A stretch of DNA of 64,000 nt from Anolis carolinensis (lineage: Eukaryota). The stretch is taken from NCBI RefSeq assembly GCF_035594765.1, contig NC_085845.1, positions 25,538,024-25,602,023 of the forward strand, written 5' to 3'. Below, piece by piece: positions 24,341 to 63,855 of the stretch. The notes under the pieces were generated by a model. It did no database searches. It saw only the letters and a list, made by a program, of their open reading frames with translations, and was not told the origin of the DNA. Numbering within the stretch: position 1 is the first letter of the stretch; each line of letters starts with the position of its first letter. The position numbers and the translations under genes were made by a program.

Positions 24341-24729
24341 CACTGACCTTGGGCCTATCAGTCTTTCTTTAACAAATAAAAGTGTTGTTGCTTTACAAAA
24401 CATGGACAAGAGAAGTCATGCACACTGTTCTCAAGATGCTACAAATCACTGTTGTTTTGCTATAATAGATTAACATTGCATTTCCTCTGAAAATTGGAGA
24501 AATGTGATGAATCATAAACGTTAGGTACTGCACTGAGTTTCTTAAGCAGTGGTGAAAATTTTCCCTTACAACCTAAACCCTCTGTATATAGAATATAGAG
24601 AGACGCTTCAGAGATGGAGCAAAGGTACTATCAACTATGGTAAAAAGACTGTCAACTATGGGCCATATTTAAGATTACAGTAGTCCTCTACACAAGATCA
24701 CCAAACATGCAGATGAGGAATTGTAATGT

Positions 24730-24845
24730 AGAGTGTTCCCTCACTTATTGCGGGGGTTACGTTCCAGGACCACCCGCAATAAGTGAAAATCCGTGAAATA
24801 GGGGCACTATATTTATTTTAATATTTGCATATTATATTAGTAGTT
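24730..24845 (+). mobile_element. Tigger-like DNA transposon end
   Basis: gagtgttccctcacttattgcgggggttacgttccaggaccacccgcaataagtgaaaatcc. Confidence 0.55.
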
Positions 24846-27024: not shown

Positions 27025-27154
27025 GGCCCCATCTACACTGCCATATAATGCAGTTTCATAATGCAGTTCAAGTGCACTTAACTGCATTATATGGGTTTAC
27101 ACTGCCTTACAATGCAGTTCAATGTAGTTAAACTACATTATATGGGCAGTGTAG
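27025..27154. mobile_element. PIF/Harbinger-type MITE
   Basis: ggccccatctacactgccatataatgcag...cattatatgggcagtgtag with internal repeats. Confidence 0.7.
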
Positions 27155-27218
27155 CATTCCACAGCATGACTGTTATATATTTATGATTTCTACATAGCCT
27201 CTAGTTTAGGAGCTATAC

Positions 27219-27542
27219 AAAGGTAAAGGTTTTTCCTTGACATTAAGTCTAGTCGTGTCAGATTCTGGGGGGTAGTATCACCTCCATTTCTAAGTTGAAG
27301 AGCTGGCGTTGTCCGTAGACACCTCCAAGGTCATGTGGCCGGCATGACTGCATGAAGTGCTGTTATCTTCCCACCAAAGTGGTACCTATTGATCTACTCA
27401 CATTTGCATGTTTTCAAACTGCTAGGTTGGCAGAAGCTGAGGCTAACAGTGAGAGCTCACCCTACTCCCTGAATTTGAACTGCTGATCTTTCGGTCAGCA
27501 AGTTCAGCAGCTCAGCGGTTTAATCTGCTGTGCCACCAGGAG
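27219..27542 (-). mobile_element. Sauria SINE
   Basis: Full-length consensus-like body with (accttt)n tail; TSD ggagctata[c/t]aa. Confidence 0.92.
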
Positions 27543-28584
27543 CTATATAAGGTCCATTAAAGTCCCCCAATCCCAACAATCTTGGCAACAGCTGCTGTTG
27601 TCAGCAGGGCTCTGTTCCTCTATCAGGAAGCACCTGACTGACATGCCCACCACCCTCCTCATGCAAATGATCTCCGACACAAGGGAGAATTGCAACAGGG
27701 ACCCTGTTTATGTGGCTTAAGTCCAGGCTGTCTGAAAGACTGTATCTCCCTATATGAGCCTATCCTAAGATCTTCAGGAGAGGGCTTTCTCTTTGTCCTA
27801 CAATATTCATCTCCCAATGAGCTTCATTCAGAAATGTCAGTGGTGTGGTGTTGGCCCAAAGAAAAATAATTTACCTCTGAAACATGAAGAAAGTGTGTAT
27901 CTTTTTTTAAGTTAATTGTATTCTTGCGGATATCATTTCACTTGAAAGGAGGGTGTGCTCTCCATACATCCTATTCTTTTAAAGCTTTTACGGCCTTTTT
28001 GGCCACCATACCACTAACATTTGGAAGTGCAACAAGTCATTCATGGCCAAAGGCAGCAGGCTGCCACCCCATTTTATGGTATTCTCTTTCATCTAGACAT
28101 AATATGTAAGATTTTATCTTTATCAACAAGATATAACAAATCCTCTTTATTAGATTGTTTTATTTCTCCAGTTCTGTACCCTGCAACTCATAACTTTTAA
28201 AAAACTATTGCAAAATTCCACCATAAACTTATTTAATTTCATGGAAGGACAGTATTTCCCCAACTTGCGATTCTGCTACAATAACTGATACATACTGAGT
28301 TGAGAATTTTTGATATTGCACCTCTTCAATAACATAATTGCACAGTTCCGCCATTCCAGGGTCCTGCCATCATAATTCAGCACCCTCATAATTCGATGAT
28401 GATGATTACTGGAACTGTCAATAACTAGAGATGGGAAAATCACTGGGAAAAGACAAACTGGTAATGGGATGCCAATGGGGTTGTATAAAAGACACTATTA
28501 ACAATGGTGATGGTGCAACTGCAATGCTGGTTTGCCTGCCTTGTTTGATAAAGTCCTAAAGTTAAAGGTGAGTACTAGTTAGTA

Positions 28585-28907
28585 CAGTAGAGTCTCACTT
28601 ATCGAACACTCACTTATCCAACTTTCTGGATTATCCAACACATTTTTGTAGTCAATGTTTTCAATATATCATGATATTTTGGCGCTAAATTCGTAAATAC
28701 AGTAATTACTACATAGCATTACTGCGTATTGAACTATTTTTTCTGTCAAATTTGTTGTATAATATGATGTTTTGGTGTTTAACTTGTAAAATCATAACCT
28801 AATTTGATGTTTAATAGGCTTTTCCTTAATCCCTCCTTATTATCCAACATATTCGCTTATCCAACGTTCTGCCAGCCTGTTTATGTTGGATAAGTGAGAC
28901 TCTACTG
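28585..28907 (-). mobile_element. Tigger-like MITE (family of 35-320)
   Basis: TIR CAGTAGAGTCTCACTTATC, TA TSD. Confidence 0.92.
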
Positions 28908-30426
28908 TATTTCAAAATAAAAATTCACCAACAGCACCAATGTAGTCCTGAGACAAACAACCATTTCCCTCCACAGAAATCTGACCTTGAGCTTCATCGA
29001 CTCTTGAGTTTCCTTGAGTTTCTTCTACCCTTTGCACAGGCTGCCAGATGCATTCTCATATGCCCCGTACCATTTTCTGTGATGCCAATCAAGTTTACCA
29101 ATATACCAACATTAACAAAGAAAAGAAAAAAAACAATTTCTGACCTGAACCATCAATGTATTATATATTTTGAACTTCTGAAAAACAATGAGACAGAGAA
29201 GATTGATGCAAGGTACAGCAAAATAAATTATCATTCATCATTGTAATAACTTTCATTCAATGTACTTGGAAGCTTTCCATGCATTTCCTTCCTATCTGCC
29301 TGTATTGTTTCATTTGGGGAAACAACAGCAGTGGCTAAAGGAAGGAAATGGCAAACATTTAGCTGATCCCTTTAAGAGAGACGGAAATGATCAGCAAGAT
29401 TGTGTGGTTATGAGGTCCTGATTCAGGTCTTTACCCTTTACCCTGTTTAATTCTGAGAAATTTCCTTTCCCTGTTAATTTAAGCAGGCCTCAGATCAACT
29501 TGTGTAGTATATTTGTGCCACTTGCAGTACTTATGTTGCATTTTTCCAATTTTTTGGCTTCAAAGGATCTCCTGACATCAAATCCATTTGCTGATTGCCT
29601 TGATCTTAAGCCAGAAAACAGCAAACATGGCAACCAATTGAACTTAAATTTCAAGAATGCAATTTTTAAAGAGGCACCAAACAACTTTGATACATAAAGG
29701 GGAGGGAGTATTGAAGTCTCTCAAAGGTTTACTCTTTTTAGTAAAAAGCTGGCAAGTGTTTCTGCATTATTTTTAAAGTCCCTTTTATTGCACCAGCTAC
29801 AGATCTGGGCATGCTCTTCCTACATCAGTTGTTTTAACTTGGTCAATATACAGCAAAAAAGAAAGGTTCTTCCTTCAGCAAATTCAGAGAGATAAATCAG
29901 CCCCAGGCCCACCAAAGTGGATCTGCACCTTTCCTAAATAAACCATAAACATATTGGAAGCAAGCAAGCAAATAATGAGGTGATTAATTTCGAATATGGC
30001 ATAGTTATGTTTTCTGCTGCAGTTCATAACAGTTAAAACTTCATGCTGAAATAATCAGGTGATTCATGTAGTACTTATACAACCACCATTGCGTATATGT
30101 GCAATCCTTTTTTGTCCTCTTTCTGCAGAAACAGAAACTGGTTTTACACATACACCCGGTTTCAGTATAATAATTTTCTTAATTTTTAAAATTTGAACAA
30201 TGCAAGAAGACAAATCATACTAACTATTCAAGAAAGAAGAAAAAGAAAAGAAAAATGGATATAAAATCACAGTTGAAATTAATATAAAACTAATGCACCA
30301 TTCTAGACTGAATACTAAGTGCTACTAATTAATATAATAGGAGGCTTTGACCATCCAGTCTAAACTGTAATTTTGCAGCAAACAAATGGTCAAATATAAT
30401 TCTACCTTTATAAATGTAACTAAATA

Positions 30427-30914
30427 CCGTATATACTCAAGTATAAGCTGACCCGAATATAAGCCGAGGCACCTAATTTTACCACAAAAGACTGGGAAAA
30501 CGTATTGACTCAAGTATAAGACGAGGGTGGGAAATACAGTAGCTACTGGTAAATTTCAAAAATAAAAATAGATACTAATAAAATTACATTAATTGAGGCA
30601 TCAGTAAGTTAAATGTTTTTGAATATTTACATAAATTGTGCACTATGTTTTTGTTTACTCTATTTTAATTGTGTCGTCGGGCTTGGCCACATGTAAGCCA
30701 CCCCAAGTCCCCATGTGGAGATGGTGGCGGAATACAAAAATACAGTTATTATAATATTATTATTATAAAACTGTAATTTTAGATGATAAGACTTTAATAA
30801 GATGAGACTATCCAACTCTGATTACCTATATACTCGAGTATAAACCAACCTGAGAAAAAGCCTGCCAGGACCCTCACTCAAGTATAAGTTGAGGGGGGCT
30901 TTTTCAGCTCTAAA
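30427..30914 (+). mobile_element. Tc1/mariner (Tc2-like) MITE, right end lost, with an L2-tail insertion (about 30637-30763)
   Basis: TA-CCGTATATACTC[A/G]AGTATAAG terminus; colinear with the intact copy at 57135. Confidence 0.8.
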
Positions 30915-31217
30915 AAGTCTAATTGTGTCCAACTCTGGGGGTTGGTGCTCATCTCCATTTCTAAGCCGAAGAGCCGTTGTTGTCCGAAGACTCCTCCAAG
31001 GTCATGTGGCCAGCATGACCACCTGGAGCGCCGCTACCTTCCCACCAGAGCAGTATCTAATAATCTACTCACATTTGCATGTTTTTGAACTGCTAGGTTG
31101 GTGGAAGCTAGTACTAACAACGGGGGCTCACCCCGATTCCCAGATTTGAACCACCAACCTTTCGGTCAGTAAGTTCAGCAGCTCAGCGGTGTAACTCGCT
31201 GTGTCACTGGGGGTTCC
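30915..31217 (-). mobile_element. Sauria SINE (tail truncated)
   Basis: Body matches the other Sauria SINE copies. Confidence 0.9.
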
Positions 31218-31317
31218 CCGGTGAGGTTAAACGTCATTATTTCTCCAATATAGATGCACCCTACAACTCCCAAAACTATCTAGTTAGATGGGGGCCCTGA
31301 TAAATTATAATGCTTTT

Positions 31318-31940
31318 TATTTATTTCATATTGAAAGCATTTCATAAATTAGTATAAAAGTCATTAAAAAAATAGCAGCACAAGTGGCTAAATATCTTTT
31401 GACCAAAAACGGGCAACAGCGATTGCATTGTCTGTAGCCTCAAACAATTATTTCTCTGTACATGAGGCAGGACACTGTGGACAAGCATATAGATGCAGAG
31501 TTGTCTGCTCTGCGCCACAGTCGCACAAGGTGGAGGATTCTTTTAGGTAGTGCCAATTGGGCAGGTTGTCTTTTGATCTGCCCACTCCACTTCTGAGTCT
31601 GTTCAGGGACATCCAGGTTGCCCATTCTTGATTTGTTCCTGGAGGCAGACCATGGTGGGGGGCCATCCAACTGAGATTTCCTGGCTTAGCTGCCCAGAGG
31701 GATAGTCTTGCTGTTGCTGGGGGAACGTCAAGAGAAGTGGTGGTCCCCATGAAGCTTTTCCTTGATTTGAGTCTACTTGGGAGGAGGCTGATAGCCATGC
31801 AGTGGATGGCTTTCACAGTGTTCAACCTTATTTCTCTCACAATTAGCAGCAACTTCCTGTCTCACATCGGGGGCCCAATGTCAGCTAGCTTGTAGAGTTT
31901 AACAACAGGTGTACGTTTAAGATATCCTGTGATTATTCTG
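31318..31940 (-). mobile_element. Vingi/I-group LINE 3' fragment (second family)
   Basis: ORF 31448..31852 (WATWMSLNRLRSGVGRSKDNL...LCDCGAEQTTLHLYACPQCP) is a Vingi-type Cys/His C-terminus. Confidence 0.85.
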
Positions 31941-32747
31941 CTGAAATGGTAAAAGATACATAATGCAATTCCAAATCTTGCTGAGAAGAACAAACTTCTG
32001 ATTACATCCTCAACTTTTGTCATTTATTCAATCCTACTTGGTCAGCTTTAGAGGGCCGCTGCATCAGCGCCTCCACAACTCCCTAGAGCTCATTTCAACC
32101 ATATAGATGACAGCCTGACATCCAGTGATGATGATGCTACTATCTTTTCTACCTGAAACAGCAAGAGACAAAGAGGAAAGCAGCAGCAGCTAGAAGTAAA
32201 TCAGTTCCATCTATCTCTATTTTGGTTATTCAGTATAAAATGAATTACTTTTTCTCTATCACCCTGTAATTCACAAGAGCTTCTGAGAAAATGAACAATT
32301 TTTTAAAAAATGAAAGCAATACAAAGTCTACAAACCTCAAAGAGATATAGGGGTACACTGTGATTGCAGACACCCATACAGCTCCCAGAAAACATGATTT
32401 CACTCAGAAATAATGTGGCCAACTCTGACAGCTGAGTTTAATAAAGTACAGGTTGAACATTCAGTAATCCCAAATTGTCCACATAGGTGGCTAAAATAGT
32501 GACATTTTGAGTTTCTGGTGGTTCAATGTCCACAAATGTTGTTTTATGCACAAAATTATTTTTAAATATTGTATAAAATTACCTTCAGGCTATGTGTATA
32601 GGATGTATATGAAACATCAATTAATATGTGTTTACACTTGCGTCTCATCTCATGATAACTCATGATTTACATATATGCAACAACGTAATCCCAAATAAAT
32701 CTGAAATCCAAAACACTTCTGGTTTCAAACATTTTGAATAGGGGATA

Positions 32748-33053
32748 GTAAAGGTTTCACTTGACATTTAGTCTAGTTGTGTCCGACTCTGGAGGGTGGT
32801 GCTCATCTCCATTTCTAAGCCGAAGAGTCGGCGTTGTATGTAGACAACTAAGTCACGTGGCCGGCATGACTGCATGGAACGCCATTACCTTCCCATTGAT
32901 CTACTCACATTTGCATGTTTTTGAACTGCTAGGTTGGCAGAAGCTGGGGCTTATAGCAGGAGCTCACTCCGCTCCCTGGATTCAAACTGACAACCTTTTG
33001 GTCAGCAAGTTCAGCAGCTCAGTGGTTTAACCCGCTGTGCCACTAAGAGTTCC
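32748..33053 (-). mobile_element. Sauria SINE
   Basis: TSD ttgaataggg(g)ata. Confidence 0.92.
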
Positions 33054-33073
33054 TTGAATAGGGATACTCAACC

Positions 33074-33435
33074 TGTCAGGCTCACTTCAAAGGACCAGTC
33101 TGAACGCAGATCAAAGATAGCTGCTCTCAAATCCAATCTTTATTGAAGAATACATGACTTTGGAAAAGTCGAGAATGACCTAATGTTTACATACATCCAT
33201 TTTTATCACCTCTGATGCAACGTAACACCACACGCAAATATCATCATCAAACCCCACCCTCTGGATCACATTACTACTATTCCCACACACTATACCAATT
33301 ATAATTGTTTATACTTTCAACCCTGAGTTCCCAGGCTCATACTATCTTCTCCCGCCAGGTGCTTTCAGGGTTATTTATGTTATGACGCCAGGTCCAGGGC
33401 TCGGAAATTCAGCCCTGGGATCTGGCTCCATGACA
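33074..33435 (-). mobile_element. Solo LTR (362 bp)
   Basis: TGTCA...TGACA termini, perfect 5-bp TSD CAACC, AATAAA on the minus strand near 33140. Confidence 0.85.
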
Positions 33436-33565
33436 CAACCTATATTTTCTGGAACAAAATTAAAGGTGTAATGCAGTTACTCTCTAGATTTCCTTTAAAT
33501 AAAACCCATTGTTATTTCTATTGCAATATTCCACAGGCCAATGTGTTAAAACTGGAAAAGTACTA

Positions 33566-33715
33566 GGCCCCTTCCACATAACTGAATAAAATCCCACATT
33601 TTCTGCTTTGAACTGGGATATATGGCAGTGTGGACTCAGATAACCCAGTTCAAAGCAGATATTGTAGGATTTTCTACCTTGATAGTCTGGGTTATATGGC
33701 TATCTGGAAAGGCCC
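33566..33715. mobile_element. PIF/Harbinger-type MITE
   Basis: ggccccttcca...tggaaaggccc TIRs, 3-bp TSD CTA; second copy at 63909. Confidence 0.8.
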
Positions 33716-35509
33716 CTAGTGTCCACTACAGCTGCAGGAAACCCATACCCATCTCCCACTGTTCTTTCTTGTCAGTATAATAACTTTTTTATCACATTGG
33801 TTTATTTGACATGTATCTTATAGGTTCTTTCAGTGTCATACACTCTGGCTTTGTGGATCCTACCAAACGTTGGCTAGGAATCAATAAACTTAATTAAGAT
33901 GGGATTTACCAAGCCAAGGGTTTTTTTCAATAAACCACTAGATATGGAATATAATCTTGCAGTGTATGATGTGTCTAAATAAAATTGAGCTGCAACAGCT
34001 TCCTTACTCCATTCAGTATTAACAGACTCGATTCAATTTTACTTTCCTTGAGACTGATATTTGTCCTACTGCTTTCTGTATTAGAAAGAAAGGATATATA
34101 ATGCTATCATCTTACAGTGTAATATAATCATCATATCATCTTTCAGACCTGCTGGCACTTGCTCACGCTCTCATATGTCATTCTAAAATGATCAATATTT
34201 CTAGCAAAATCCTGACCATATTTCCCACATATCTCCATTTTAATCATGTCAACACAAAGAATATGACTTTTCTTCCACCTTTTTGGTTCATTTTTCTTTT
34301 CTTCTTTGAAAAATTCTCAAAAAGGCACCCATGTTTCAGAATTTTGTGAATATTTCCAGTAATAATTAAAAAGTGACTAGCTAATTCTAGGTCCTTTAAA
34401 AAAAGCCACATTCATGCTTATCACAGACATGTCTACAACCCATTTGTGGCAAAAGCAGTAAGAAGGAGATAGTTTGGACAAATGCTAAGTAAATTGATTC
34501 ATCATGTCCCTTCTCCAAGAAAATACTGTACTTTTCTTAGAAGAATGAGTTTTCATTATGTGTAGCACTTTGATGAAATATATTACATTTCTATTTTATT
34601 TAAAGTAGATGTAATGTCCAGGATAAACCTTTACCTTTTTACATTGGTGTGAAATCATCTGGGTACAGGACAAGAGGTGTTTTTCAACTTGCAACCAGTT
34701 TTGGCATTTCAGGGGGAACAAATCCAAAAATCATCCAAAAATTGGCCTAGATTTTTTTAAATAGTAAAGGTTGGGATAGTTGGATGTTTCCAGAAGATAT
34801 TAAGGAAGACTATGCAGACCCAAGTCTGCACTTTCTCCACCCTTGAGATACAAAAAATAATAATGTTTTATTCAATCTATGTCCTCTTTTTTCTCTTTTG
34901 TGATGCTGAATGTCTTCTCATTTTCTTTGACAGTGACTGAGCTGTTGTGTAATCTAGTCCCCACCACCACCACCAAGTAGTTCCATCAGTTTCATCCTGT
35001 CCAAAATAGTCTTATGTAACATATAATGGACAAAAATCTTGTACCATGTGTGCTTTTCAGAAACAGTGTTGTTTTAAAGATTGTAGCCTTGGGGAGGCAA
35101 TCTAAATGTTTTAAAATATCACAGAAAGTACTTTGTAGATGTTGGCTTCATTAAGATTCCCCTTTAATGCCCTTTTACAAGATTTTCTTGGATTTTTTTA
35201 AATTAAAAATTTCCAAAGTTAAAAAGAATTCCACAGGGAAGCTATTTACTGCCTGGTACACTGCTGAGAACCATTTTATTCAGTTAGGCAATAAGCATGC
35301 CATACACGATAAACAATGAGGGCACAAGCAATATTGTTGCTACTGATGCACAACAGTTGTCTTAGCATTATGCTGCCTGCCAGATGTGTTAAAGTACAGC
35401 TTCCATCAACCCTAGCAACATGGGCAATTATCATGGAAGATTTAATATGAAGCACCATAAATTGTAAGTTTATGGTGGAGGGATGCATACATTTACAATT
35501 CCAGTCTTC

Positions 35510-36387
35510 TGTTGTATATGAGGATTAGGGAGATTTCTTCTGCTTCAGAGGAAAAGATGTACTCTGTTGTAGTCCAGCCTGAGTCAGTGTCTGATGTGTC
35601 TGATGTCAATGAGGTTTCTGGGCCTATGTCTGATTGCAATGGGAATAATGGTATAGACAGGTCTGACTGCAGTGGGGATAATGGTAGTGACAGGCTTGCC
35701 TTAGAGCTAGAAGTTTCTGCAGAACAGAGATCAGAGGCTCAAGATCACATTCCTGAAAGGGGCTGGTTTTCTGAGGAGGATTTGTCATATGCAGATACAG
35801 GTATAGAGGTCAATGAGCTGGCAGATAGACAGCAAGACTTTTGTAAACAGAAAAGGAAGTTCCCAGGTCCTTTGATGGTCAGTTCGCCTTTGAGAAAAAA
35901 AGGCAGATAAATTATCTGGTGAGAAAGTAAAATGAAATGTTTTTTTCTCACTGCAGGGGGCTTTTTAAGAGAAAGGGAAAAGCCTTTTGCTTCATTGGGG
36001 TCAATGCTGGTGATTGAAGCCAGTCATGCCAAGTTCATGCTTTTAATGGATGTTTTAGCTTCATGGTTCCTGTCCTGCCAAATTTCTGTTCTTTGATTCC
36101 AAGTGTGTTTTAGTTTCATGGTTCCAGTTTACCAAGTTCATGCCTTGACTGATGAGATTTACACTGCCTTGTGCTTTTGGATTTTGCAACCTTGTACCTT
36201 GTGTTTTATTCTTGTATCTTGGAAGTTTTGGACTATTAGTGATATTCTGAAGAATTTTTTTGGGGCTATACTCTAAAATCCTTTTTATTGCTTGGCTTTT
36301 ATATATTCTTCAATAAACTCCTTGTTGATAATACTCAGCTGGCATTGTGTTTTATGGTTAGAGGGGTTCCAGCTCTGGGGTACAAAA
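35510..36387 (+). mobile_element. Solo LTR (Gypsy-like, about 880 bp)
   Basis: TGTTGTA...TACAAAA (TACAACA) termini, 5-bp TSD tcttc/tattc, AATAAA at about 36312. Confidence 0.7.
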
Positions 36388-38449
36388 TATTCTAAGCATG
36401 GAATCAACCTTTTAGCCAGTCATTAGCCAAAGTCATGTCATAGCTACCATTCAGGATATTTCATTTATATGAACATTCTTGCAGCCACTGGGCAGTGGTC
36501 TCCATTGTCTTGCACGAGCTTCTGAGAAAAATAGTAACCGTTTTCCAAATAGGCATCGAAAACTGCAGTTTTTGATTACACTGTTGTGCCAGATAAGAAC
36601 TTCAGAAACTGTTGGTGTGAGTCATTCTCCTGACAAAACATTAGTGCTCCTGAAAAGTCAACCACAGTTTGGCACCCTACTAATAGGATCCCAAGGGGAC
36701 AGGAGACCTTTTTTTGGGTTAAACATAACAAAAACAAATAAAAACAACTTTTTGTGCCTACCTCCTGTGTACCAGGAACAACCAGCATTTGGCCAAAAAA
36801 AGTCCTATTGTGGATTATCCAAATATCTTAAATCATTTTATGTGACTATTGACAGCTTCCACCTTTCTGTTGGCTATGAGATAGTGATTAACTATTAATC
36901 AAATTATTTAAAATATTAATTGATTGTCTGCTGAAGTTTGTAGGAACATTTATCCATTATGCTGTCCCCAGATTTGCATGTATCAGCAATTATTGGCATA
37001 TACACGTTTCTGCTAATTCCTGTCTTTGTTTGTTCCCTTTTGAGATGGGGCATTTCCTCCTTTTGTTAGTGTACAAGTGGCCATCTTAAATGAGGCCCTG
37101 GTGTCTCAAGAAATCTGTGCATTGGTTAAGCATTATGCCACATTACCTGTATGGATCAGGAGACACAAAGAGAATACCCATAATTTGATAAATATGTATA
37201 ACATCCATTACCCTAGTATTGCCATTTTCTGAAGTTCATATCAATAGTTTATTTTTAAAAAATAAATGCAATAGCACAATCAGATGTATTTAACCTGATT
37301 ATGGTAAAAAGAGTTAGCCTTCATTTTTGGATTCATTTCATTTTGTTGAACTAAACCAAATAAAAAACAAGAGACAAAAATGTGGTCATCAGAAGAACAT
37401 GCACTTTAAACAATGCAGTTAAAACTGTTATATTAAAAGGTTACCTTTAACAGGTATTCATAGCACTTACATTTTCGGTGGCAACAACACTGGGAACACA
37501 AGTGAAGCAACACAGCACTACCTACGCAAGACAATGTATGTTCTATATTTAATCCCCCTTCTTTAGTTTATAACTCTCATGTTTCAGCACCATGCATGCC
37601 TCCCACAACACTACTTTGCAACAAATAGCACTTTGTTTTCTAATCTGGTAGAGAATTTTCCAGAATCTGATGCTACAATTTGCAAGTATAAAAAAATAAA
37701 AATTTTATGGTTTACTTTCCAACATTAGTATTCTATAAGTAAAATAAATACAATGCATGACTATAACAGGAGACTGGACATTCCTGGTCCAGTGTCCTCT
37801 GTATTTGACCTCCTTGTGTTTAGTAGGAAAGTATGAATGGGGCTTCTACTCCTGTTAAGCTAGACCAGAGTAGATGTCCCTTGTATTATAAGGGGTCCAT
37901 TCATTCAAGTACACATAACTAGAAGTCCTCTTTAAAGCTGCTTCCTGAATATAGGAAAAACAGGGCCCAGGCTAAGTCATTTAGAGGCACATGGGATGTG
38001 TTCAGCCATGCAGCCCTTTGCCCCACACACGTATTTACTTACCCTGCTTGAGCCTAGTACCTTAGTATGACTTACCTGAACATTGATAACATAGGTGGAT
38101 CTAATAGTTATGAATGAACTATCTAAGTCCCCCTTTGCACATTAAGATTAATATCTGAGTTTTGTGTTCAGATATTGTGTGCATGCTTAGTAGCATCACA
38201 GAGCTGGTGTCACTGAAGGGAGGCCACTCCTGGAACCTGGAAGTCCGCATGGCCCTTGGCTTCTGGAAATTAGGAGTCCAGCCAGTGCTCTGTGGTGTTT
38301 TTTTCTCACAGAGCAGACCTGCATGCTTCATGAATAGGAGGAAAAGAGAGGTCCTGGTCCTCTCCTCAACTGTCATTACAACAATGTGCTTTTTTGTTAA
38401 TCTGATCCAAATAGTTTTATATTTCTGCTTTTAGTTTTTTTTCAACCAT

Positions 38450-38780
38450 TAAAGGTAAAGGTTTTCCCTGACATTAAGTCCAGTCCTGTCTGACTCTGGC
38501 GGTTGGTGCTCATCTCCATTTCTAAGCCGAAGAGCCAGCGTTGTCCGTAGACACCTCCAATGTCATGTGACCATAGGCATGACTGCATGGAGCGCCCTTA
38601 CCTGCCCACCAGAGCAGTACCTATTGATCTACTCACATTGGCATGTTTTCGAACTGCTAGGTTGGCAGAAGCTGGAGCTAACAGCGGGTGCTCACTCCGT
38701 TCCCGGGATTTGAACCTGGGACCTTTCGGTCTGCAAGTTCAGCAGCTCAGTGCTTTAACACACTTCGCCACCGGGGCTCC
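38450..38780 (-). mobile_element. Sauria SINE, full length
   Basis: Perfect 12-bp TSD tttttcaaccat. Confidence 0.95.
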
Positions 38781-38867
38781 TTTTTCAACCATGAGCTCTT
38801 TGAAATTATTAAGCTATGTTTTAGTGGAACTGGCAATAACATCTCTGAGTATTTCCTGCCTAATAAT

Positions 38868-51709: not shown

Positions 51710-52088
51710 ATTCTGCTCTATCTCCCCAAGGGGACTCAGAGCAGATTATAGGTACATATATGGCAAACATTCAATGCCGTTATACAATTGACAGAGATAG
51801 ACAGCACATAAACAGAGGCAAGGCTTCCCTCTTTTCATCTCCAGCATCCAGCTGTGCTTGACTCGGCCATAGAGAGGTGCTGTTGTTTCATTTTCCACAC
51901 TGAGAAGCCTGTCGTCCATGGACACCTTTCCTGGTCAGATTTTTGCTGCCATGTTTTCAGGGCACCTTTTACCTCCCCACCAAAGCAGTAACTATTTATC
52001 TACTCACACAGTTGTTTTCAAACTGCTAGACAAGCAAAAGCTGGGCTGACGGCGGGAGCTCACCCCAACCTGACCTGAGCTGAACTGT
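51710..52088 (-). mobile_element. L2-tailed tRNA SINE, older copy
   Basis: Tail ctctatctccccaaggggactcagagcagattata; body colinear with 44256. Confidence 0.75.
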
Positions 52089-53040
52089 TTCCACCTGGTT
52101 CACCCTGTATAAGGGGCTAGAAGTCCCTGGCTGTCCACATTTGACTTCTTGTCCACTTTGGGCTATAGGGCCGTTACAGACCAGCCTTCTGATGTTGCCT
52201 AATGAATTTAGCAACTGCAAAACATGCAAGTGTAGAAATGTAAGGGAGAGAAATTTTCATTGCATGCAGCACAATATTATATGAAGTGGAGGGATGGGAA
52301 CGAAAGGACCTATAGGGCTACACTCTGGGATTACCTAGCAGCACCGCTGGGTAGAGCTCTTTTCTTCTGCCACTTTTCTGGGTATGTCATATTAGGCACT
52401 TTCACGTAGAGCAGGCACAATGCGTACATCCACTGTGCCTGGTTGCTTGGCAACAGCATAGAAATTCATGGTATTTAATGCGTAGATGTGTATATTTACA
52501 ACACAAGCTGTGTGGCTTTGGGAATATGTGTGGGGAACAACTCAACTGACAATGATGTATAGGCCAAGCCCAGACAAGAGGAAAACAGAGTAATGGGGCT
52601 GATAAATGAGGAACGTCTAGTCTGTAAGAGAGGACATGGATTCTGGTTCAAAAAGCGCGGGGAGTGTGTGTGTAAATATCAGGAGTGTGAATCTCTTTCT
52701 TTCCATTTTGACTTTGATTGAGTTCCATCCACATTTGCTCATTTTGCATTAGATTTTAAAATGCTGTATATTCTTCACACACTGAATATCCACATTTTTC
52801 ATAATGTGTGCATTCTCGTTTTGCCTAGATCCAGTTAGCACATTGCTAGAATGTCAGGCTCATAAAAATACTAAGATGTCAGTTTGACACATAATAAGAA
52901 AAGTTAACTCCAGAAAGTTCACAAAATGTATGTTTCAGTATTCTCCTCTAAAGCTTCTCTTGAACAATGTGAATAAGGAATGGGAAATACTCAAGAAAAA
53001 GGGGACAGATTTTCTTTCCATGGTCCTATAGTTAACAAAT

Positions 53041-53367
53041 GGAGCCCCGGTGGCAAAGTGCGTTAAAGCGCTGAGCTACTGAACTTTCAGACCGAAAGGT
53101 CCCAGGTTCAAATCCCGGGAGCGGCTTGAGCGCCCGCTGTTAGCTCCAGCTCCTGCCAACCTAGCAGTTCGAAAACATGCAAATGTGAGTAGATCAATAG
53201 GTACCGCTCCGGCGGGAAAGTAACGGTGCTCCATGCAGTCATGCCGGCCACATGACCTTGGCGGTGTCTACGGACAACGCCGGCTCTTCGGCTTAGAAAT
53301 GGAGATGAGCACCAACCCCCAGAGTCAGACATGACTGGACTTAATGTCAGGGGAAACCTTTACCTTT
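53041..53367 (+). mobile_element. Sauria SINE, full length and young (CpG-rich)
   Basis: Intact A/B boxes, (accttt)n tail, 12-bp TSD tatagttaacaa. Confidence 0.96.
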
Positions 53368-55074
53368 TATAGTTAACAAGCCTCAAGATTCAAAGACGAT
53401 TTAGGGTGATCTGCACTCTCTCTCCCTTCCATTTTATGTTGTTGGGAAGCACTCCTGAACTCTCAGAGTGACTTTTTGGGGAGGGCCAGAAGACAAAAAG
53501 GAAACTTATATTATGTAATGTTCCTTAAGTTAACTTATCTTAGATTTATCTTAGAAAATATAGCAGCAGTGACACCCCTGGCTGACATTAAGCAGATCTT
53601 AGTGATGATATCATAATTTTGCCTCTGATAACAGAGACATAGCCAGATGCTTCTCCAATCCTGCCTGCTCTACGAGACATTATAGCATGTTGTGGGGAGC
53701 TGTGGAGGCCGTAGAGAAAAAAAGAGAAGACCAATGTCTGCAGCACACCATAATGGACATCCACACAAGGAATACTTATATATTTGTATGTACCTAACAT
53801 AATTCCAATCACTGCCAACCTCATCAGATGGAGGAAAATTCAATGGCATACTCCATTTCAACACTCCTTTAAGCACGGAGCCTGTCAGCTCCCATTACAT
53901 GACATATTACTGTTCTGGTGGGGATCTAAGCTTAAAGAGGTGTCAAAGTGAAGCATGCCACCATGGCAAAAACATGGGAGGCTTCCCATGTTACCTTGGA
54001 TCAATGGGGGGGGGAGGCATAAGGTTGATGCTTCCCCCTATGGGATCGCCCCACCAGTAAGCCAGATGATGTGGGGTGTGGGGCGACAGGTTCTCCATGC
54101 CTCCCAGCGGCAGTCACCAGATTCACCACGATATGTGGCAATTCTGGCAGCCAGTGTAAAGAGGTCCTGAGTCTCTTTGTTCACATGCATATATGTAAAA
54201 TAGTAATTTTTCACAGAATCATTTTTGTGCAAACTATCAAAAGATTAACAACAAAGTGCTCCTTGGTGTATTCACAAGTTTGGAAGTGAGAACTTGCATG
54301 AAGTCATGTGGTCATCTTTTTACTGACAGCTTAAATTTTTGTGAATATTCACCGTGCTAATTTCAGACTATTCTTCTGTAACTTCTACAATATGCGGGAG
54401 GCTCAGATTATGCTAGCCGGGATGGAAAAAACATTGTCTGGAAGATGACATAGTGTAATCTCACTCCTCCTCTGCCATATAAACACAACACACATTTTGA
54501 GGTAGGAAACCTAGGTTTGCTTTCATCTGCTCCTTTAAAAAGCATGTTCCTGTTTCTCTGAGTTAAGAAAGACAAATAATGTGTTACCTTCATTTATTGA
54601 AAATTGCCAAACTCATCTCAGTCACTAGCAGGCAGTCAACTGCAAAAAGGTCAGGGAACCACTCATCATGATTGTACTGTGTTATATAAAAATAATTGTT
54701 CATTTTGTCTTTTCCTGCAACGGGAGAGCTCATTTATTCTCTGTGCTCATGACCCTGCCTACCACATCTATCATTCGTCAGAACAGTGAAGGGAAAATGC
54801 TTAGAACTGTCTTAGCATTGCTATTGTATAACACACATATCAAAATGGGAACTATGTATGATGTTCTTCTCTCTTCTCTCCTTGGAAGTTAGCCACAGAG
54901 CTTTATTTTGACATTATTTTCATGAGGCTGTCAAAGAATAATTACATTTAAATATTTCTAACATTCTTCCTTACATGTTGCAGAATGTATCATTGCAACA
55001 TTACAAAATCCAAAATAGCATTTAGAAGTTGTGAGAAAGTTGAACACTAATACTTCCCCACCATCTGTCACCAC

Positions 55075-55340
55075 ATGCCCTCCAACTGTCCCAGTTTGGC
55101 AAGAACAGTCCTGATTAAACTTCTATCATCCCAATTTCCCAGCTGCTTTTAAAATGTCCCACTTTCTCTCTCCTCCTCCCACTTTCCCCCTTTATCCTCA
55201 GCTTCCTTCAGGTGCTGTAAACTGAGCTCAAATTGGAAAATTAGTTTGCACTCAATTAACCTATCAGGGATGAAGAGAGGGAGGCAGAATCTTGTCCTAC
55301 CCAGTCAGCTCAGGCAAAAGCAAACCGATGTAGCCCCTCC
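55075..55340. mobile_element. Old hAT-like element remnant
   Basis: ccctccaactgtcccagtttggcaagaacagtcc terminus-like sequence. Confidence 0.4.
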
Positions 55341-55811
55341 AAGCTTATCTGTTCTTCCTTATTAATAATGTTTGCTATCTTGACCATGGTGTGATGGTAT
55401 GTGGCCTCATGTGTCCTAATTTTCATTGGTGAGATGTTGGGGCATGCCATTATTAGCTGATGGTATGATGTCAGGAAAAGGGGATTTAAGACACAAGGAA
55501 AATACAAGGTGAGATCTATGGGATATTGAATTGGACACATGGTAGACAAAACAATAACTGTCATTTCCCATCTGGCCTTTAAACAAGCAAACAAAACTGA
55601 TGTATTTGTGATGTTCAACCTGATTGTGCAAAGGCAATAAATGTTTAGCAACAAATCATGACTCATTAAATATCCTGATGGATTTCCACCTACGCTATGA
55701 AAAGATTATCACAAAAGTGTATTACTGAAGAGAGATGTGTAATCTGCTCAAGACAGTATGTATCCACTATCAATGATAACACAACTGTAATGAAATGGGT
55801 TCACATGATAA

Positions 55812-55955
55812 GGTCCTAAGAGTGGTGGAATCTCTTTCTGGATTATCCACAGCTAACTCTTGGGATAATTAGCTGGAGTTTCTGCACTGGAGTGTGGGTC
55901 AGACTCAGTAGCCTATGGGGCCACTTCCAACTCTATAATTTTGTAATACTGTAAT
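55812..55955 (+). mobile_element. Old CR1 3' end
   Basis: gagtggtggaatctc...cttccaactctataattttgtaat tail. Confidence 0.55.
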
Positions 55956-57134
55956 GGACTTCCATCTGAACAGACAAATTATAGAAGATTGCACCGTTAG
56001 CTTTCTTCAGAGAGTTACAGAGAGAACATTTCCTAAGGTGGGGAGAAATAATGACAACAATCAGCTCAAGGTTGTAGCGCTGATTGTTTATTAAAAATGG
56101 TTCTTGGCAGTCTTATATGAATTGCTTAATGCTTCATCTGCTGGGTTGGTACTTGTCAGCAGGATGGATCCCCAAAGAATCTCCTAACCTACTTATTGTT
56201 TACTGTAGACAGCTGTCTCTTCGCAAGAAACTTCCCCATGTGTTCAGCTTTTGGGAATCCGGGCCCATTTACATTGCTGAAGAGTTGTGCCTTGTTTTAA
56301 TTAGACACAGAAACACTACCTTAGGAGGCTTCATTGCCTTCAGCTCAATAGCTAGAAGGAATTAGTTGTCAGAGAAATGTGTTTAAAGCTGCTACATGAT
56401 GACAAGATAACAGAACCCTGTTTAAAAGTTTGTTACCAAGCACAGTTTTTAATTGCATAATCCTTGCTATTATTATTAGTCGCCTTGCTAAAGAACACAA
56501 GTAATAGCCATAAAAATAGACTCTTTTTACCATATTTACTTGATGAAATGCCTCATTCCTTTGTGGAAGTATGGGGAAGTACATCATCCAGAAATTGTCA
56601 TGGCTTTAAGAACACCATTTTTGCCCAAGGTGCATACGGTCCCAGATTCATATAGACCAGAGTGTGGATATGGTGTTCATTCTATTGCAAAAACACTAGT
56701 CAAACAACAGTTTGTACAGAGACTACTAAATAATTGTTGGGCATGTATCCATTCTAATTTGCAAGTAAGCGTTACATAGTTAAAGTTACTTTAAAAAATC
56801 CTGAGGAAACATGTCTCCAGAATAAACCAGGATAAAAGAAAGATTGCTGTGGATTTTTCCAGCTGAATTCATCATATGCTTGTGTGTACTTTTGTCTGTG
56901 TATTACTCTGATTATTTTCAATTTCATTTTTAATTATTTATCCTTGAATTTATCATGGACATCCTACTTATAATGCACCTACAGTGTTAATGCAGTTTGA
57001 AATCACTTCACTGCCATGCATCAATACTATGAATCATGGGAACTGCAGTTTTACAAGATCTTTAGTCTTCTCTGCCAAAGACTGCACTAAACTACAACTC
57101 CTAGGACTACATATCACTCTTCAATTAACACTTA

Positions 57135-57526
57135 CTGTATATACTGTATAAGCCTAGTTTTTCAGCCCTTTTTTAGGGCTGAAAAAGCTCCCCTCGGCTT
57201 ATACTCAAGTGAGGGTCCTGGCCGGCTTCTATTCAGGTCGGCTTATACTTGAGTATATAGGTATTCAGAGTTGGACAGTCTTATCTTATTAAATTTTTAT
57301 TATTATCTTAAATTACAGTTTTATATAAATATTCAAAAACATTTAACCTACTGATGCCTCAAATAATGCAATTTTATTAATATTTATTTTATTTTTGAAA
57401 TTGACCCGTAGCTGCTGGTTTTCCCACCCTCGTCTTATACTCGAGTCAGTACGTTTTCCCAGTTTTTGTGGTAAAATTAGGTGCCTCGGCTTATATTCGG
57501 GTCGGCTTATACTCGAGTATATATTG
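57135..57526 (-). mobile_element. Tc1/mariner (Tc2-like) MITE, complete
   Basis: TA TSD, termini related to CCGTATATACTCGAGTATAAG; sister of 30427. Confidence 0.85.
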
Positions 57527-59058
57527 TATTTATAAAAGTATTACTAATATAATCTCCTGGTCCAATCCTTCCAAATGCATCTTAACATCCAACAGCTGCT
57601 ACAAGTGATAAGTATCTGTTCTATTGGTGATCAGAGCATGACAAGATGATCTTTCTAGCTGCATCCCACCAGAAATCTGTGGTGCAAATAAGGAATTGTG
57701 ATGGGCTCTTACTTCTGATATTGATAACCCGGCCTGTTGGTTTGAGAGGGCTGGAAACAACATCCTGCTGCACCCCAATAGCCAGCACAGCAGATCCCTG
57801 TTCACCGCAGCTTCCTTTTGTTTAAGTTTAGGATTCAGAAGGCATTTCTGATTATGAGAATACTGCTAGTATCATGAGTACATAGTAAAATATGATCCTC
57901 ATCAGAAGGACCAGTATTCCACATTTCATTTATCCATGTTTAACAAAATATGTCATTTCTAGGCATTTTCTAGGTCTTTCAGCATGGCTCTCATAGTATT
58001 CTTGGACAAGATGTCTTTCATTTCAATAAAGTGTGCTATTTTGTATAGCCATTCAAAATTCAGGAACTTATCCCCGTAGATATGAGGATGTCATAATGTA
58101 ATACTGAATATAGTAGGTTACAAATCTGTAACTATAGTACAGGACAATAGCGCATACCTTGTCTTTCTATCTGTGACATTCTGAGAGTTGTAGTGTGAAG
58201 CACTAATTTCACAAAGTTGATCCCACTCAAAATAATGGTCTAACATAGAACAGAGGCAAAAGAAGACAACACTATTATCCTTCTCTTCTCCTGTATTTTT
58301 GCGCACATGGGAAAGCATTGTGTTCATGTCAGTTCTCCTGTGGAACAACTCAGAAATATAATGGAAAGCAAAACCCATCTTCCAAGGCCAGCCTGAATAG
58401 AAAGGTCTTACATGGTATCAAAAAGATGGCTCGGCTTTAACGAATTTCCATGAAAATGAGAGTGCCAGCATAAGCTACTTAAATTCTGGCCTTGAAAATG
58501 TTTCTGAAATCCAAATGCCAGTGACTACATAATGTACTACCTTGTTAAAAAGATACCCTTCCCCTTACAAAACCCTCCGTAGAGTTCTAAAAATGATGTA
58601 ATTGGTACTTGAACTGACAACTGCACAGATTTAAATCAAACACCAAAAATGCAATGTAAATACAAAGAAAAAAAAAAGCAATTTGGCATTGTGGCTCTGT
58701 CCCACTGGATAATAAATACCAGCCGGTGATGCCATAGAAACAGAACAGAGAAGGATAGAATTATTGTTGACTCAATATCCATGAGATTTGTAATTGTAGT
58801 GCTTCTATCCTTTAGAAATTAAAAAAGACGTGATAGCAAGATATCACCACTTTGTTTTTTCCTGCTGTTTCTCCTTTATAGTAATCTTGGCTTTAGAAAT
58901 TGTGTTACTGCTACCTTTTTTTTTCTTTTCTTTTTTTTGACATCTGCAGTTGAAAGTAGTGAGACTGGGAGCAAAGGAGTGGAGCCTCGAGAAGGGAGAT
59001 CTGTCTTAAGTACAATTCCTCCTGTCTCCTCAAGAGTAGTGGATTGGAAAGTCAAGTA

Positions 59059-59366
59059 CAGTAGAGTCTCACTTATCCAACATAAACGGGCCGGCAGAAC
59101 ATTGGATAAGCGAATATGTTGGATAATAAGGAGGGATTAAGGAAAATCCTATTACACATCAAATTAAGTTATGATTTTACAAATTAAGCACCAAAACATC
59201 ATGTTTAACAACAAATTTGACAGAAAAAGTAGTTCAATATGCAGTAATGCTATGTAGTAATTGCTGTATTTACGAATTTAGCACCAAAATATCACGATGT
59301 ATTGAAAACATTGACTACAAAAATGCGTTGGATAATCCAGAAAGTTGGATAAGTGAGACTCTACTC
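59059..59366 (+). mobile_element. Tigger-like MITE (family of 35-320)
   Basis: TIRs and TA TSD. Confidence 0.92.
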
Positions 59367-59924
59367 TATCCCCAAAGTAGTGTCTTGTTTAAGAACAGTG
59401 TCTCAGGTTTACTCAAGAGTAGCAAATTGGAGGAGAAAGTCAAGTATCCCCAACTTTTTTTCAGATTTTTTTAATGAAGTGGGCAGAAACTGCACTTGCT
59501 CCTGTGATAAATCTGAAAATGGATTATTTGGAGAGAAAATGAAAGAAAGAACAGCATGTGATGGTATCTGAGAAATGATATGATTGGCTTTCTAACACAA
59601 CAGGACATAACACCACAGTAATATGATGCCCCCCCCTTCATGGGATGAGGTCCTTAGATGTATCTTTAAGGGTGAGATATCTATAACATGGTAGATCCAT
59701 GTCTGGTAGAGCAATCCGATGATGCAAAATATTAACAGATCACAGTGGAAAAAAAGAACTGCACAATACCTATTTTGCTTCACTCCCCCACCCCCCAAAA
59801 AGTGTGGGCTGTGTGCTTTCATCCATCAGGAAAGACACCTTGGTAAGGAAACCAGGTTGCAAATCAAAATTGCCAATGAGTTAGTAATTACCTAGTTAAC
59901 CTAAATAAATTTATATCTGCAAGG

Positions 59925-61075
59925 AATTTCATCCCAGGATACAGAAGTAGTAGTTACAGAACCACTTAGCACTACTTTTTAGAAATCTTAGAAAATGGTT
60001 GAGGTGCCAGAAGATAGGCAAAGATTGTTCACCTCTTCAAAAAGGGCAAAACAGAATATCAAGGAAACTATAGGTCAGTCAGCCTGGCCTTAATGCCAGG
60101 AAAAATAGTAGAATGAATTATACAGGAGTTCATCTGCAAATATCTTATTTACAATGCAATGATTAGAAAGAATCAGCATGGCTTTGTCAAGAACAAATTC
60201 TGCCAAAAAAATCTTAGATCTTTTTTTGACCAGGTCACTAGTTTAGTAGATGGCAGAAAGGTTGTGGACATAATTTATCTGGGTTTCAGCAAAGCATTTG
60301 ATAAGATTCTGCATGACTTTTATTTAGTAATCTGACTACGGAACAGAAACACCATTAGATGGATACATAACTGGTTGGAAACCTGAGCTGAAAAAGTCAC
60401 CATTAGTTGCTGAGCTTCCAAGTGGAAGGAAGTTTATTTCTTTTATTTACAGTATTTATATTCCGCCCTTCTCACCCCGAAGGGGACTCATGGCGGATTA
60501 CAATGAACACATATATGGCAAACATTCGATGCCAACAGACAAACAACATATATATACAGACACAGAGGCATTTAACTTTTTTTTTCCAGCTTCACGATTC
60601 CGGCCACAGGGGGAGCTGTTGCTTCACTGTCCACTAGTGGCTGTACTTCCTCATTCCTTTCCTCGTGTTTTGCTGGCAGTTTTTATGATGTTGTAAATTA
60701 ATTAAATTAGCCTCCCGCATAAAGCGTACCTAAATTTCCCTACTTGACAGATGCAACTATCTTTCGGTACTGCATAGGTCAACAGCAAGCTGGGCTATTT
60801 AATGGTCGGGGGCTTAACCCGACCTGGGCTTCGAACTCATGACCTCTCGGTCAGCAGTGATTTATTGCAGCTGGTTACTAGCCTGCTGCGCCACAGCCCG
60901 GCAAGTGGAATATCAAAGGGTTCTGTCCTTGGGGCAATACTCTACTTTTATCAATGATTCTGATGAAGTCAGGGGGAAGGAATTCTTATCAGATTTACAG
61001 ATAATACAAAACTGGGAGTGATATCTAACATATTGAATTATAGAAACAGAATTCAAAAGAAAATTGGGCTGAAGT
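59925..61075 (+). mobile_element. CR1 LINE RT-region remnant, interrupted by a SINE
   Basis: Degenerate FKKGK...GNYRSVSL...PGKIVE, QHGFVKNKFC, VDIIYLGFSKAFDK motifs. Confidence 0.88.
60433..60900 (-). mobile_element. L2-tailed tRNA SINE (Anolis SINE2-type), full length
   Basis: Head gggctgtggcgcagc...gagttcgaagccc; L2-like tail; TSD caagtggaa. Confidence 0.9.
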
Positions 61076-61577
61076 TAGTAAAATGTCCTACAGACCTGGT
61101 GGCCAAGATGGGAATCTAAGGGCACCTGTATAGTGAGAAGGTTCTAGGACCAGTAGTGGGAAGGGAAAGAGCTTTTGGGAATAGTTTTAAATATATTATT
61201 TTGGGAATTAGAAAGCTTTACTGGCGTATTTGGCTTAAAATTATCTTGATAGCGCAAGATATGCTAGACATTAAGAAGTTATTAAATATGGAAGACTGGC
61301 ATGGTATGGCTAAGGAGGATTTGTGGAGAACTGCATTCCACATCATCTTGAGTAGCTCTGTGACTGATTAACAATATATTTATAATGTTTATCTAATTTT
61401 TGCATCCCACCTCTTTCTTCTACATTAATGTTTATTATTATCATTATATTTAAGATGGATGTGAGTATACTAATAATTTACATAGAAATAAAAAATGGAT
61501 AAGATCATGGCATGGCTCAGACCTGTGACATCCAATTGCGCTGTTATTAATGTTTCTTAATATGTATATCTCTTCAG

Positions 61578-61686
61578 ATAAATGAAGACAAGAAGGAAAA
61601 AGATAGTCCAGAGGAAGAAGTGAAGGATGAAGATGACACCTATGTGATGATGATGATAAAATCAAAATCTCAATGTAACGAATTTA
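61578..61686 (+). CDS. BANK1: Internal coding exon, putative BANK1 exon 8 (INEDKKEKDSPEEEVKDEDDTYVMMMIKSKSQCNEF, phase 0 to 1)
   Basis: Acceptor tatatctcttcag|ATA and donor TTA|gtaagt; 109 nt, open in frame 0, purine-rich, encoding an acidic peptide. It splices in frame to 63544. The initial Ile, acidic run, TY[V/I] and phases match my recollection of human BANK1 exon 8 (IQEIDINNEQENDYEEDIASFSTYIP). Confidence 0.72.
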
Positions 61687-63543: not shown

Positions 63544-63855
63544 GCACAAGAGAACACCCTGAAGCCTGTAGGAAAATCAAGAACAGAGGCATGGACAACG
63601 AGGCAGAGCAGGAAGAAGATGAAGGGGAAAGAGGAGTACAGAAAGAAGCACCAACACCAGCAGCAGAAGAAGAAGGAAATAAAGTTGAGGAAAAGCTTCA
63701 TTGCTTGGGTGGTAATGACGAGAAATATAACAGCATAATCAACACAGTCTCACAGATACATTACAGAGATTTTAACTACACTGACAGGCCACCATTACCA
63801 CCTCGAATTCAACCTATTACTACAAAACAGGATGAGTTCTCCTATTTGTCTCCAG
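63544..63855 (+). CDS. BANK1: Internal coding exon, putative BANK1 exon 9 (STREHPEACRK...RPPLPPRIQPITTKQDEFSYLSP-G, phase 1 to 1)
   Basis: Acceptor cttccccaacattaacag|GC and donor CCAG|gtatga; 312 nt, fully open, symmetric phase 1. It contains most of ORF 63591..63884. Similar to recalled human BANK1 exon 9 (ST..HHESRK...EMEGEG...RPPLPPPR...LP|G) in length, RPPLPP position and terminal P|G. Confidence 0.75.

What the first reader, a model, noticed from the sequence alone, without database searches (positions are those of the whole stretch)
61641..61652. Putative lizard BANK1 carries a BCAP-like YxxM (YVMM) PI3K-docking motif
Seen: the exon encodes EEEVKDEDDT-YVMM, an acidic run before Tyr with Met at +3. 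Established: acidic-YxxM is the classic Syk/Src-family phosphosite that binds p85 SH2 domains. The paralog BCAP/PIK3AP1 uses YxxM motifs after its ankyrin repeats, whereas human BANK1, as I recall, has TYIP here. Inference: squamate BANK1 may keep or have regained direct PI3K recruitment that mammalian BANK1 lacks, meaning differently wired B-cell/TLR signalling in reptiles.
Basis: partly seen in the sequence, partly recalled or inferred. Interest (0 to 1): 0.7.

Follow-up and report, generated by a model that had tools for sequence, protein, structure and literature searches.

The report
Ancestral BANK1 PI3K motif mammals lost
This lizard exon of the B-cell scaffold gene BANK1 encodes a tyrosine motif (YxxM) that is kept in sharks, bony fish, amphibians, reptiles and birds but missing in every marsupial and placental examined, so BANK1 likely still docks the signalling enzyme PI3K outside mammals, as its sister protein BCAP does, while the human lupus-risk version has likely lost that link.

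Summary
The motif is real. Window 61641-61652 encodes YVMM in a 109-nt exon (61578-61686) of Anolis BANK1 (Y423), spliced GT..AG to the next exon in contigs of 2 of 4 runs laid. It is neither squamate-specific nor regained. A YxxM follows the ankyrin repeats in 128 of 134 non-mammalian BANK1 records (sharks to birds; the 6 misses lack the exon), in 0 of 5 marsupials, and at this site in 0 of 90 placentals. Human BANK1 has no YxxM at all. The exon has the same position and splice phases as the exon carrying BCAP's first two tail YxxM, so the motif is most likely inherited from the BANK1/BCAP ancestor and lost by the therian ancestor. The matching human residue is more likely Y416 (YEED) than the TYIP tyrosine. 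Phosphorylation and p85 binding are inferred, not shown; no monotreme was found. My paper searches found no report of this loss, although it is visible, unremarked, in a published alignment. The scan's notes held nothing on BANK1. Verdict: a known motif in a known gene; the new point is its loss in mammals.

The parts
61578..61686 (+). BANK1 post-ankyrin exon (8th by exon count), 109 nt, phase 0 in and phase 1 out; encodes P0001 residues 402-437 plus one base of S438
   Evidence: AG acceptor at 61576-61577 and GTAAGT donor from 61687; contig ends and joint in X9, X14; exon order
61641..61652 (+). YxxM motif, Y423-V-M-M; the only YxxM in Anolis BANK1
   Evidence: conservation
61611..61640 (+). 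Acidic run EEEVKDEDDT before the tyrosine (kinase-recognition context, inferred)
   Evidence: positions -2 to -4 are mostly D/E in 127 non-mammalian records
63544..63855 (+). Next BANK1 exon (312 nt): acidic linker and the PPLPPR proline-rich motif
   Evidence: joint 61686 to 63544 and covered range; PPLPPR at 63789; GT donor at 63856
1..61577 (+). Most of the roughly 64.8-kb intron between the ankyrin exon (outside the window, ends at G000:C5:25534753) and the YxxM exon
19284..19379 (+). Repeat-derived piece with a GTAAGT donor, joined to 61578 in one contig (alternative upstream exon; side finding)
   Evidence: loose end of the X9 contig maps here; 40 scored genomic copies, 82-87% alike apart from itself

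Best explanation
The YVMM in this spliced BANK1 exon is a YxxM motif shared with the paralog BCAP and kept across non-mammalian jawed vertebrates, and it likely works as a phosphotyrosine dock: receptor-activated Syk or a Src-family kinase would phosphorylate Y423 and the SH2 domains of PI3K p85 would bind it, a link that marsupials and placentals have likely lost because Met+3 is gone. Shown: sequence, splicing to the next exon, conservation, absence in therians, matching exon position and phases in BCAP. Predicted: location in a disordered linker. Inferred: phosphorylation, p85 binding, the idea that DBB-driven dimers would offer two sites to p85's tandem SH2, the Y423 = human Y416 match, and a single loss before the marsupial-placental split.
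For: (1) YxxM within 80 aa after the ankyrin repeats: squamates 25 of 27 records, turtles 13 of 17, gharial 1 of 1, birds 73 of 73, amphibians 7 of 7, fish 9 of 9, marsupials 0 of 5, placentals 1 of 90, and that one is a different tyrosine (mole YVFM, 64 aa on). The 6 non-mammal misses lack the exon. (2) The constraint has the p85 pattern: +3 is Met rather than any hydrophobic residue, +1 is V 85, M 21, E 14, I 6, T 1, and +2 is free (2.4 bits) among 127 motif-bearing records. p85 SH2 prefers pY-M-x-M with a narrow Met pocket and a hydrophobic +1 patch (PMC7337045); both p85 SH2 bind the single pYVKM of CTLA-4 (PMC2191832 abstract). (3) In this genome BANK1 and BCAP both end the ankyrin exon in phase 0 and carry YxxM at codon 22 versus 24 of a following phase 0/1 exon; p85 SH2 binds BCAP's three tail YxxM in peptide arrays (PMC6937578). 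(4) Shark, ray, fish and tetrapod rows form one BANK1 clade (100/99) apart from BCAP. (5) Y423 lies in a stretch of pLDDT <50 (411-605) just after the last ankyrin helix. (6) Human BANK1 is phosphorylated after BCR engagement, Syk-dependently in DT40 cells (PMC3608554).
Against: No binding or phosphorylation data exist here for any non-mammalian BANK1. Anolis BANK1 has one YxxM, while BCAP has three spaced for tandem SH2 binding, and tandem sites give far higher affinity (PMC7337045). p85 SH2 binding on arrays is promiscuous (PMC6937578 section 9). Zero entropy at Y and M is by construction, because rows were anchored on the motif. Fish and several amphibian rows were picked after viewing; other fish models there lack the motif because they break off or run into intron after the ankyrin exon, and only 1 of 5 sturgeon/paddlefish models has it. 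Unanchored MAFFT did not put the therian tyrosine on the YxxM tyrosine but 5 columns upstream, and 3 of 9 placentals score better in that register. No monotreme was found, so one loss versus two, and its date, are not fixed. Mouse BANK1 dampens Akt (review PMC8151866), so a p85-binding BANK1 could inhibit rather than activate PI3K.
Confidence: 0.65

Rival explanations
1. The site binds p85 but works as a decoy or brake: with one site instead of BCAP's three, non-mammalian BANK1 would hold p85 or compete with BCAP/CD19 without fully activating PI3K.
For: Single YxxM in Anolis; mouse BANK1 loss raises CD40-driven Akt activation (review PMC8151866); tandem sites matter for affinity and specificity (PMC7337045).
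Against: The mouse phenotype comes from a protein with no YxxM at this site, so it says nothing direct about this motif; single motifs such as CTLA-4 pYVKM do bring down PI3K activity (PMC2191832 abstract); BANK1 DBB is modelled as a dimer (PMC7128310).
Confidence: 0.17
2. The conserved motif docks another partner (SHP-2 or another SH2 protein, or AP-2 mu2 as an unphosphorylated YxxPhi sorting signal) rather than p85.
For: YxxM fits YxxPhi, and CTLA-4's YVKM also binds AP-2 and SHP-2 (recalled, from no call). SH2 specificity is loose (PMC7337045).
Against: Those partners accept L/I/V/F at +3 (recalled), yet Met is what is kept from sharks to birds; the paralogous BCAP sites are established p85 docks; BANK1 is a soluble scaffold, not membrane cargo.
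Confidence: 0.13
3. The YVMM is a squamate novelty or a by-product of the local ATG/GAT repeat, with no function.
For: The codons form a short ATG run, and the Met run differs in length among squamates; 76 chance YxxM occur in the window's six frames.
Against: Motif present in 128 of 134 non-mammalian records, most with no Met run (YVLM, YVAM, YIDM, YELM); 29 of 29 versus 2 of 87 control windows; homologous exon in BCAP.
Confidence: 0.02

Closest known systems
BCAP / PIK3AP1 tail YxxM motifs (Y419, Y444, Y459; numbering read from dugong P0150, 805 aa)
   Same: Paralog with the same TIR-DBB-ankyrin layout; the YxxM exon follows the ankyrin exon with the same phases (0 in, 1 out), Tyr at codon 24 versus 22, acidic residues upstream.
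   Different: BCAP keeps three tail motifs plus one in DBB and is shown to bind p85; Anolis BANK1 has one, untested. Whether it matches BCAP's first or second motif is not resolved: it is 22 versus 24 codons from the exon start (first motif) and 14 versus 14 from the exon end (second motif).
Human and mouse BANK1
   Same: Ortholog; the same exon ends 12 codons plus a split codon after a conserved tyrosine in turtle, emu, canid, beaver and lemur isoform pairs; known to be phosphorylated after BCR engagement and to bind Lyn/Blk and PLC-gamma2.
   Different: No YxxM among the 23 tyrosines of human BANK1; the likely matching site reads YEED (Y416); marsupials read Y-[VA]-E-[KT]-[MV].
Single-motif p85 docks such as CTLA-4 pYVKM
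   Same: One Y-V-x-M motif; both p85 SH2 bind that peptide (PMC2191832 abstract).
   Different: CTLA-4 is a membrane receptor; BANK1 is a cytosolic scaffold, so membrane delivery of PI3K would need another contact.

Membership tests
BANK1 (B-cell scaffold with ankyrin repeats) | TIR-like, DBB and ankyrin domains followed by acidic/proline-rich tail and coiled coil | tested here: met
   P0001 carries PF18567 and PF14545; folded N-terminal domains, ankyrin helices and C-terminal helices in the model; exons found in order on G000:C5
BANK1 (B-cell scaffold with ankyrin repeats) | Groups with human BANK1 and not with BCAP; a separate BCAP gene exists in the genome | tested here: met
   BANK1 clade 100/99 on the DBB-ankyrin region, 33 rows; BCAP locus on G000:C3
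p85-docking YxxM site (BCAP/CD19/CD28 type) | Tyr with Met at +3, usually hydrophobic at +1 | tested here: met
   YVMM; +1 V/M/I in 112 of 127 records; consensus from PMC7337045
p85-docking YxxM site (BCAP/CD19/CD28 type) | Exposed, disordered, cytosolic location | tested here: met
   Predicted only: pLDDT <50 and no secondary structure over 411-605
p85-docking YxxM site (BCAP/CD19/CD28 type) | Conserved while its neighbours drift | tested here: met
   128 of 134 non-mammalian records; 29 of 29 versus 2 of 87 control windows
p85-docking YxxM site (BCAP/CD19/CD28 type) | Tyrosine is phosphorylated after receptor engagement | not testable with these tools
   Acidic upstream context only; no phosphoproteome seen
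p85-docking YxxM site (BCAP/CD19/CD28 type) | Phospho-dependent binding of p85 SH2 and PI3K activation | not testable with these tools
   No experiment; no complex prediction run
BCAP-type tandem YxxM array | Two or more YxxM 10-30 residues apart | tested here: not met
   One YxxM in Anolis BANK1 versus three tail motifs in BCAP; spacing rule from PMC6937578

The most novel reading that the evidence does not exclude
BANK1 was a second PI3K-recruiting B-cell adaptor throughout jawed-vertebrate history, and a change of one residue (Met+3) in the therian ancestor turned it into a PI3K-blind partner or competitor of BCAP. That would explain why mouse BANK1 dampens Akt, and it predicts that putting Met back at human position 419 restores p85 binding and flips the sign of BANK1's effect on Akt.
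Probability: 0.25. Interest if true: 0.7.

Novelty: new variant of a known kind. Interest (0 to 1): 0.45.

Why it matters
BANK1 is a lupus-risk gene studied almost only in mouse and human, where it has no PI3K-docking motif and restrains Akt. If the ancestral protein docks p85, the mammalian form is the derived, rewired one, and the BANK1/BCAP division of labour is much younger than the gene duplication. It gives a one-residue test in human cells and in chicken DT40 B cells, whose own BANK1 sequence carries YVLM, and it warns against reading fish, amphibian and bird BANK1 through mouse data.

Tried and rejected
Squamate-specific gain and ATG-repeat artefact: rejected. TYIP as the human counterpart: best register in 0 of 14 therians, versus Y416 in 11 of 14 and a +5 register in 3 of 14; Tyr at that place in only 51 of the 85 placental records tallied and in no marsupial. 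Unanchored MAFFT gave the +5 register and did not settle the point. Monotremes: none among the best 120 of 398, the best 120 of 587 or the named representatives (30 looked up). No run was on record as RNA ('no RNA holder listed'); X6 and X13 covered only repeats. The ankyrin-exon to YxxM-exon joint was not observed in reads. No complex prediction was sent: no p85 SH2 sequence was in hand and the tool has no phosphotyrosine. No fold search was run, as the motif lies in a disordered part. The original BANK paper (Yokoyama 2002, PMC125810) is not held. Paper searches for a prior report of the motif in non-mammalian BANK1 or its loss gave none; the library lacks most subscription journals. The scan's earlier notes held nothing on BANK1 or BCAP.

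Full report
1. Observation. Window 61641-61652 reads TAT GTG ATG ATG (YVMM) after EEEVKDEDDT. It lies in a 109-nt exon, 61578-61686, between an AG acceptor and a GTAAGT donor. A search with the next exon returned three proteins, all named BANK1, the best (98%) from Anolis carolinensis; the exon equals residues 402-437 of that record, P0001, with the tyrosine at 423. The other BANK1 exons lie in order on G000:C5; the ankyrin exon ends about 64.8 kb upstream, so the window is almost all one intron. Of 4 runs laid, 2 from different studies (X9, X14; RNA status is the tool's guess) have contigs that cover only the two exons and join 61686 to 63544 across a GT..AG intron; the other 2 covered only repeats. 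The joint to the ankyrin exon rests on the gene model.

2. More than chance. The window's six frames hold 76 YxxM, so the motif needs conservation to count. I gathered orthologs from the best 120 of 398 hits with P0001, the best 150 representatives (30 named) and the best 120 of 587 hits with an amphibian-plus-tenrec profile. A YxxM within 80 aa after the ankyrin repeats was found in 25 of 27 squamate records, 13 of 17 turtle, 1 of 1 crocodilian, 73 of 73 bird, 7 of 7 amphibian and 9 of 9 fish records (lungfish, bichirs, teleosts, sawshark, sawfish): 128 of 134. The 6 misses are gene models without the exon; for Varanus and Pseudonaja another model has the motif, for Pelusios and Terrapene I have no evidence. 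Records are clusters and isoforms, not species, and three unnamed records were grouped by similarity. The fish and some amphibian rows were chosen after viewing, where further fish models stop or run into intron after the ankyrin exon; 1 of 5 sturgeon/paddlefish models has the exon, with YELM. As a control, 29 of 29 one-per-lineage records have the motif in the first window against 2 of 87 other tail windows. Among 127 motif-anchored records, +1 is V/M/E/I/T (85/21/14/6/1), +2 takes at least 9 residues and -2 to -4 are mostly acidic. Most lineages have no Met run, so the ATG repeat is not the source.

3. Mammals are the exception. None of 5 marsupials has the motif; they read Y-[VA]-E-[KT]-[MV]. 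Of 90 placental records one has a YxxM in range, at a different tyrosine; the usual reading is YEED. Human BANK1 (P0389) has 23 tyrosines and no YxxM; Y416 is YEED and Y426 is YIPS, matching the alignment in PMC9695028 Fig. S4. A tree of the DBB-ankyrin region (33 rows) puts shark, ray, fish, amphibian, sauropsid and mammal rows in one BANK1 clade (100/99), apart from BCAP. The simplest history is retention everywhere and one loss at or before the marsupial-placental ancestor; no monotreme was found, so the date is open.

4. Which human residue matches. In exon-skipping isoforms the exon ends 12 codons plus a split codon after the YxxM tyrosine in a turtle and emu, and after the YEED tyrosine in wolf, fox, beaver and mouse lemur. 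A profile of 25 non-mammalian motif blocks scores the Y416 register best in 11 of 14 therians (5 of 5 marsupials, 6 of 9 placentals), a +5 register in 3 and the TYIP register in none. Against this, unanchored MAFFT chose the +5 register, and without the tyrosine column the +5 register leads in most placentals. I favour Y416 with Met+3 replaced (ATG to ACG or AAG is one base; inference), but a one-codon insertion in the marsupial form is not excluded. Human Y416 is listed as a predicted SH2 site but was not mutated in PMC3608554.

5. Relation to BCAP. The genome's BCAP gene (G000:C3) ends its ankyrin exon in phase 0; the next exon (63 codons plus 1 base, phase 1) holds YESM at codons 24 and 49, and the third motif straddles the following joint. 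BANK1's exon is also phase 0/1, with the tyrosine at codon 22. Lamprey BCAP has YMAM at the same place. So the motif predates the duplication (inference).

6. Mechanism. Shown: a conserved YxxM in a spliced exon. Predicted: it sits in a disordered linker right after the last ankyrin helix (pLDDT <50 over 411-605; model mean 63, pTM 0.34). From the literature: p85 SH2 domains select Met at +3 and a hydrophobic +1 (PMC7337045), bind BCAP's three tail YxxM (PMC6937578) and bind a lone pYVKM (PMC2191832); BANK1 is phosphorylated Syk-dependently after BCR engagement (PMC3608554); its DBB domain is modelled as a dimer (PMC7128310). Inferred: phospho-Y423 docks p85, a dimer would supply two sites, and PI3K is drawn into the BCR/TLR complex (0.65). 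Rivals: p85 decoy (0.17), another partner (0.13), no function (0.02).

7. Novelty. The motif class and both genes are known. Eight searches found no paper noting a YxxM in non-mammalian BANK1 or its loss in mammals. The alligator and chicken motifs are visible in PMC9695028 Fig. S4, not aligned to BCAP's, and the passages I saw do not remark on them; its motif table lists the YESM block as unique to BCAP. The library lacks most subscription journals.

8. What I saw of each paper. PMC6937578: passages, section 9 and a search of one of two supplement files; the array figure is a picture, so per-peptide results were not seen and may bear on how well the first tail motif binds. PMC9695028: passages and supplement parts 1-3 of 4. 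PMC5241739, PMC8151866, PMC3608554, PMC7128310, PMC7337045, PMC5837976: passages. PMC2191832: abstract passage. Yokoyama 2002, Aiba 2006 and Okada 2000: not read, known only through citing papers. AP-2 and SHP-2 binding to CTLA-4 YVKM and their +3 tolerance are recalled.

9. Verdict. New variant of a known kind, interest 0.45; about 0.7 if the one-residue switch explains the inhibitory role of mammalian BANK1.

Noticed in passing
window 19284-19379: One contig (X9) joins a repeat-derived piece ending in a GTAAGT donor to the YxxM exon instead of the ankyrin exon. The piece has an in-frame stop and at least 39 other genomic copies at 82-87%, so it may be a transposon-driven 5' exon of a short tail-only transcript; seen in one contig only.
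   Followed up: partly
DBB domain of BANK1 orthologs (P0103, P0105, P0268, P0124, P0134, P0408): Caecilians, salamanders, lungfish and sturgeon keep a second YxxM (YTAM/YTSM) matching BCAP's DBB motif Y263 (YTDM); the amniotes checked mostly lack it, suggesting stepwise loss of BCAP-like motifs.
   Followed up: partly
P0149 (Talpa) and P0298 (Echinops): Both have YVFM at the tyrosine matching human Y488 (YVFI), a possible separate gain of a YxxM in two placental lineages.
   Followed up: no
P0164 (Pristis) and P0177 (Boleophthalmus): Records named 'PIK3AP1-like' look like BANK1: P0164 falls in the BANK1 clade and P0177 hits BANK1 references best.
   Followed up: partly
P0036, P0118, P0043, P0059, P0064, P0101, P0403, P0408: Several gene models skip the short YxxM exon or read into the long intron before it, likely annotation errors caused by the very long intron.
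   Followed up: partly
P0127, P0130, P0133 (frogs): Frog BANK1 models are 980-1108 aa against about 770 in amniotes, with an expanded acidic tail.
   Followed up: no
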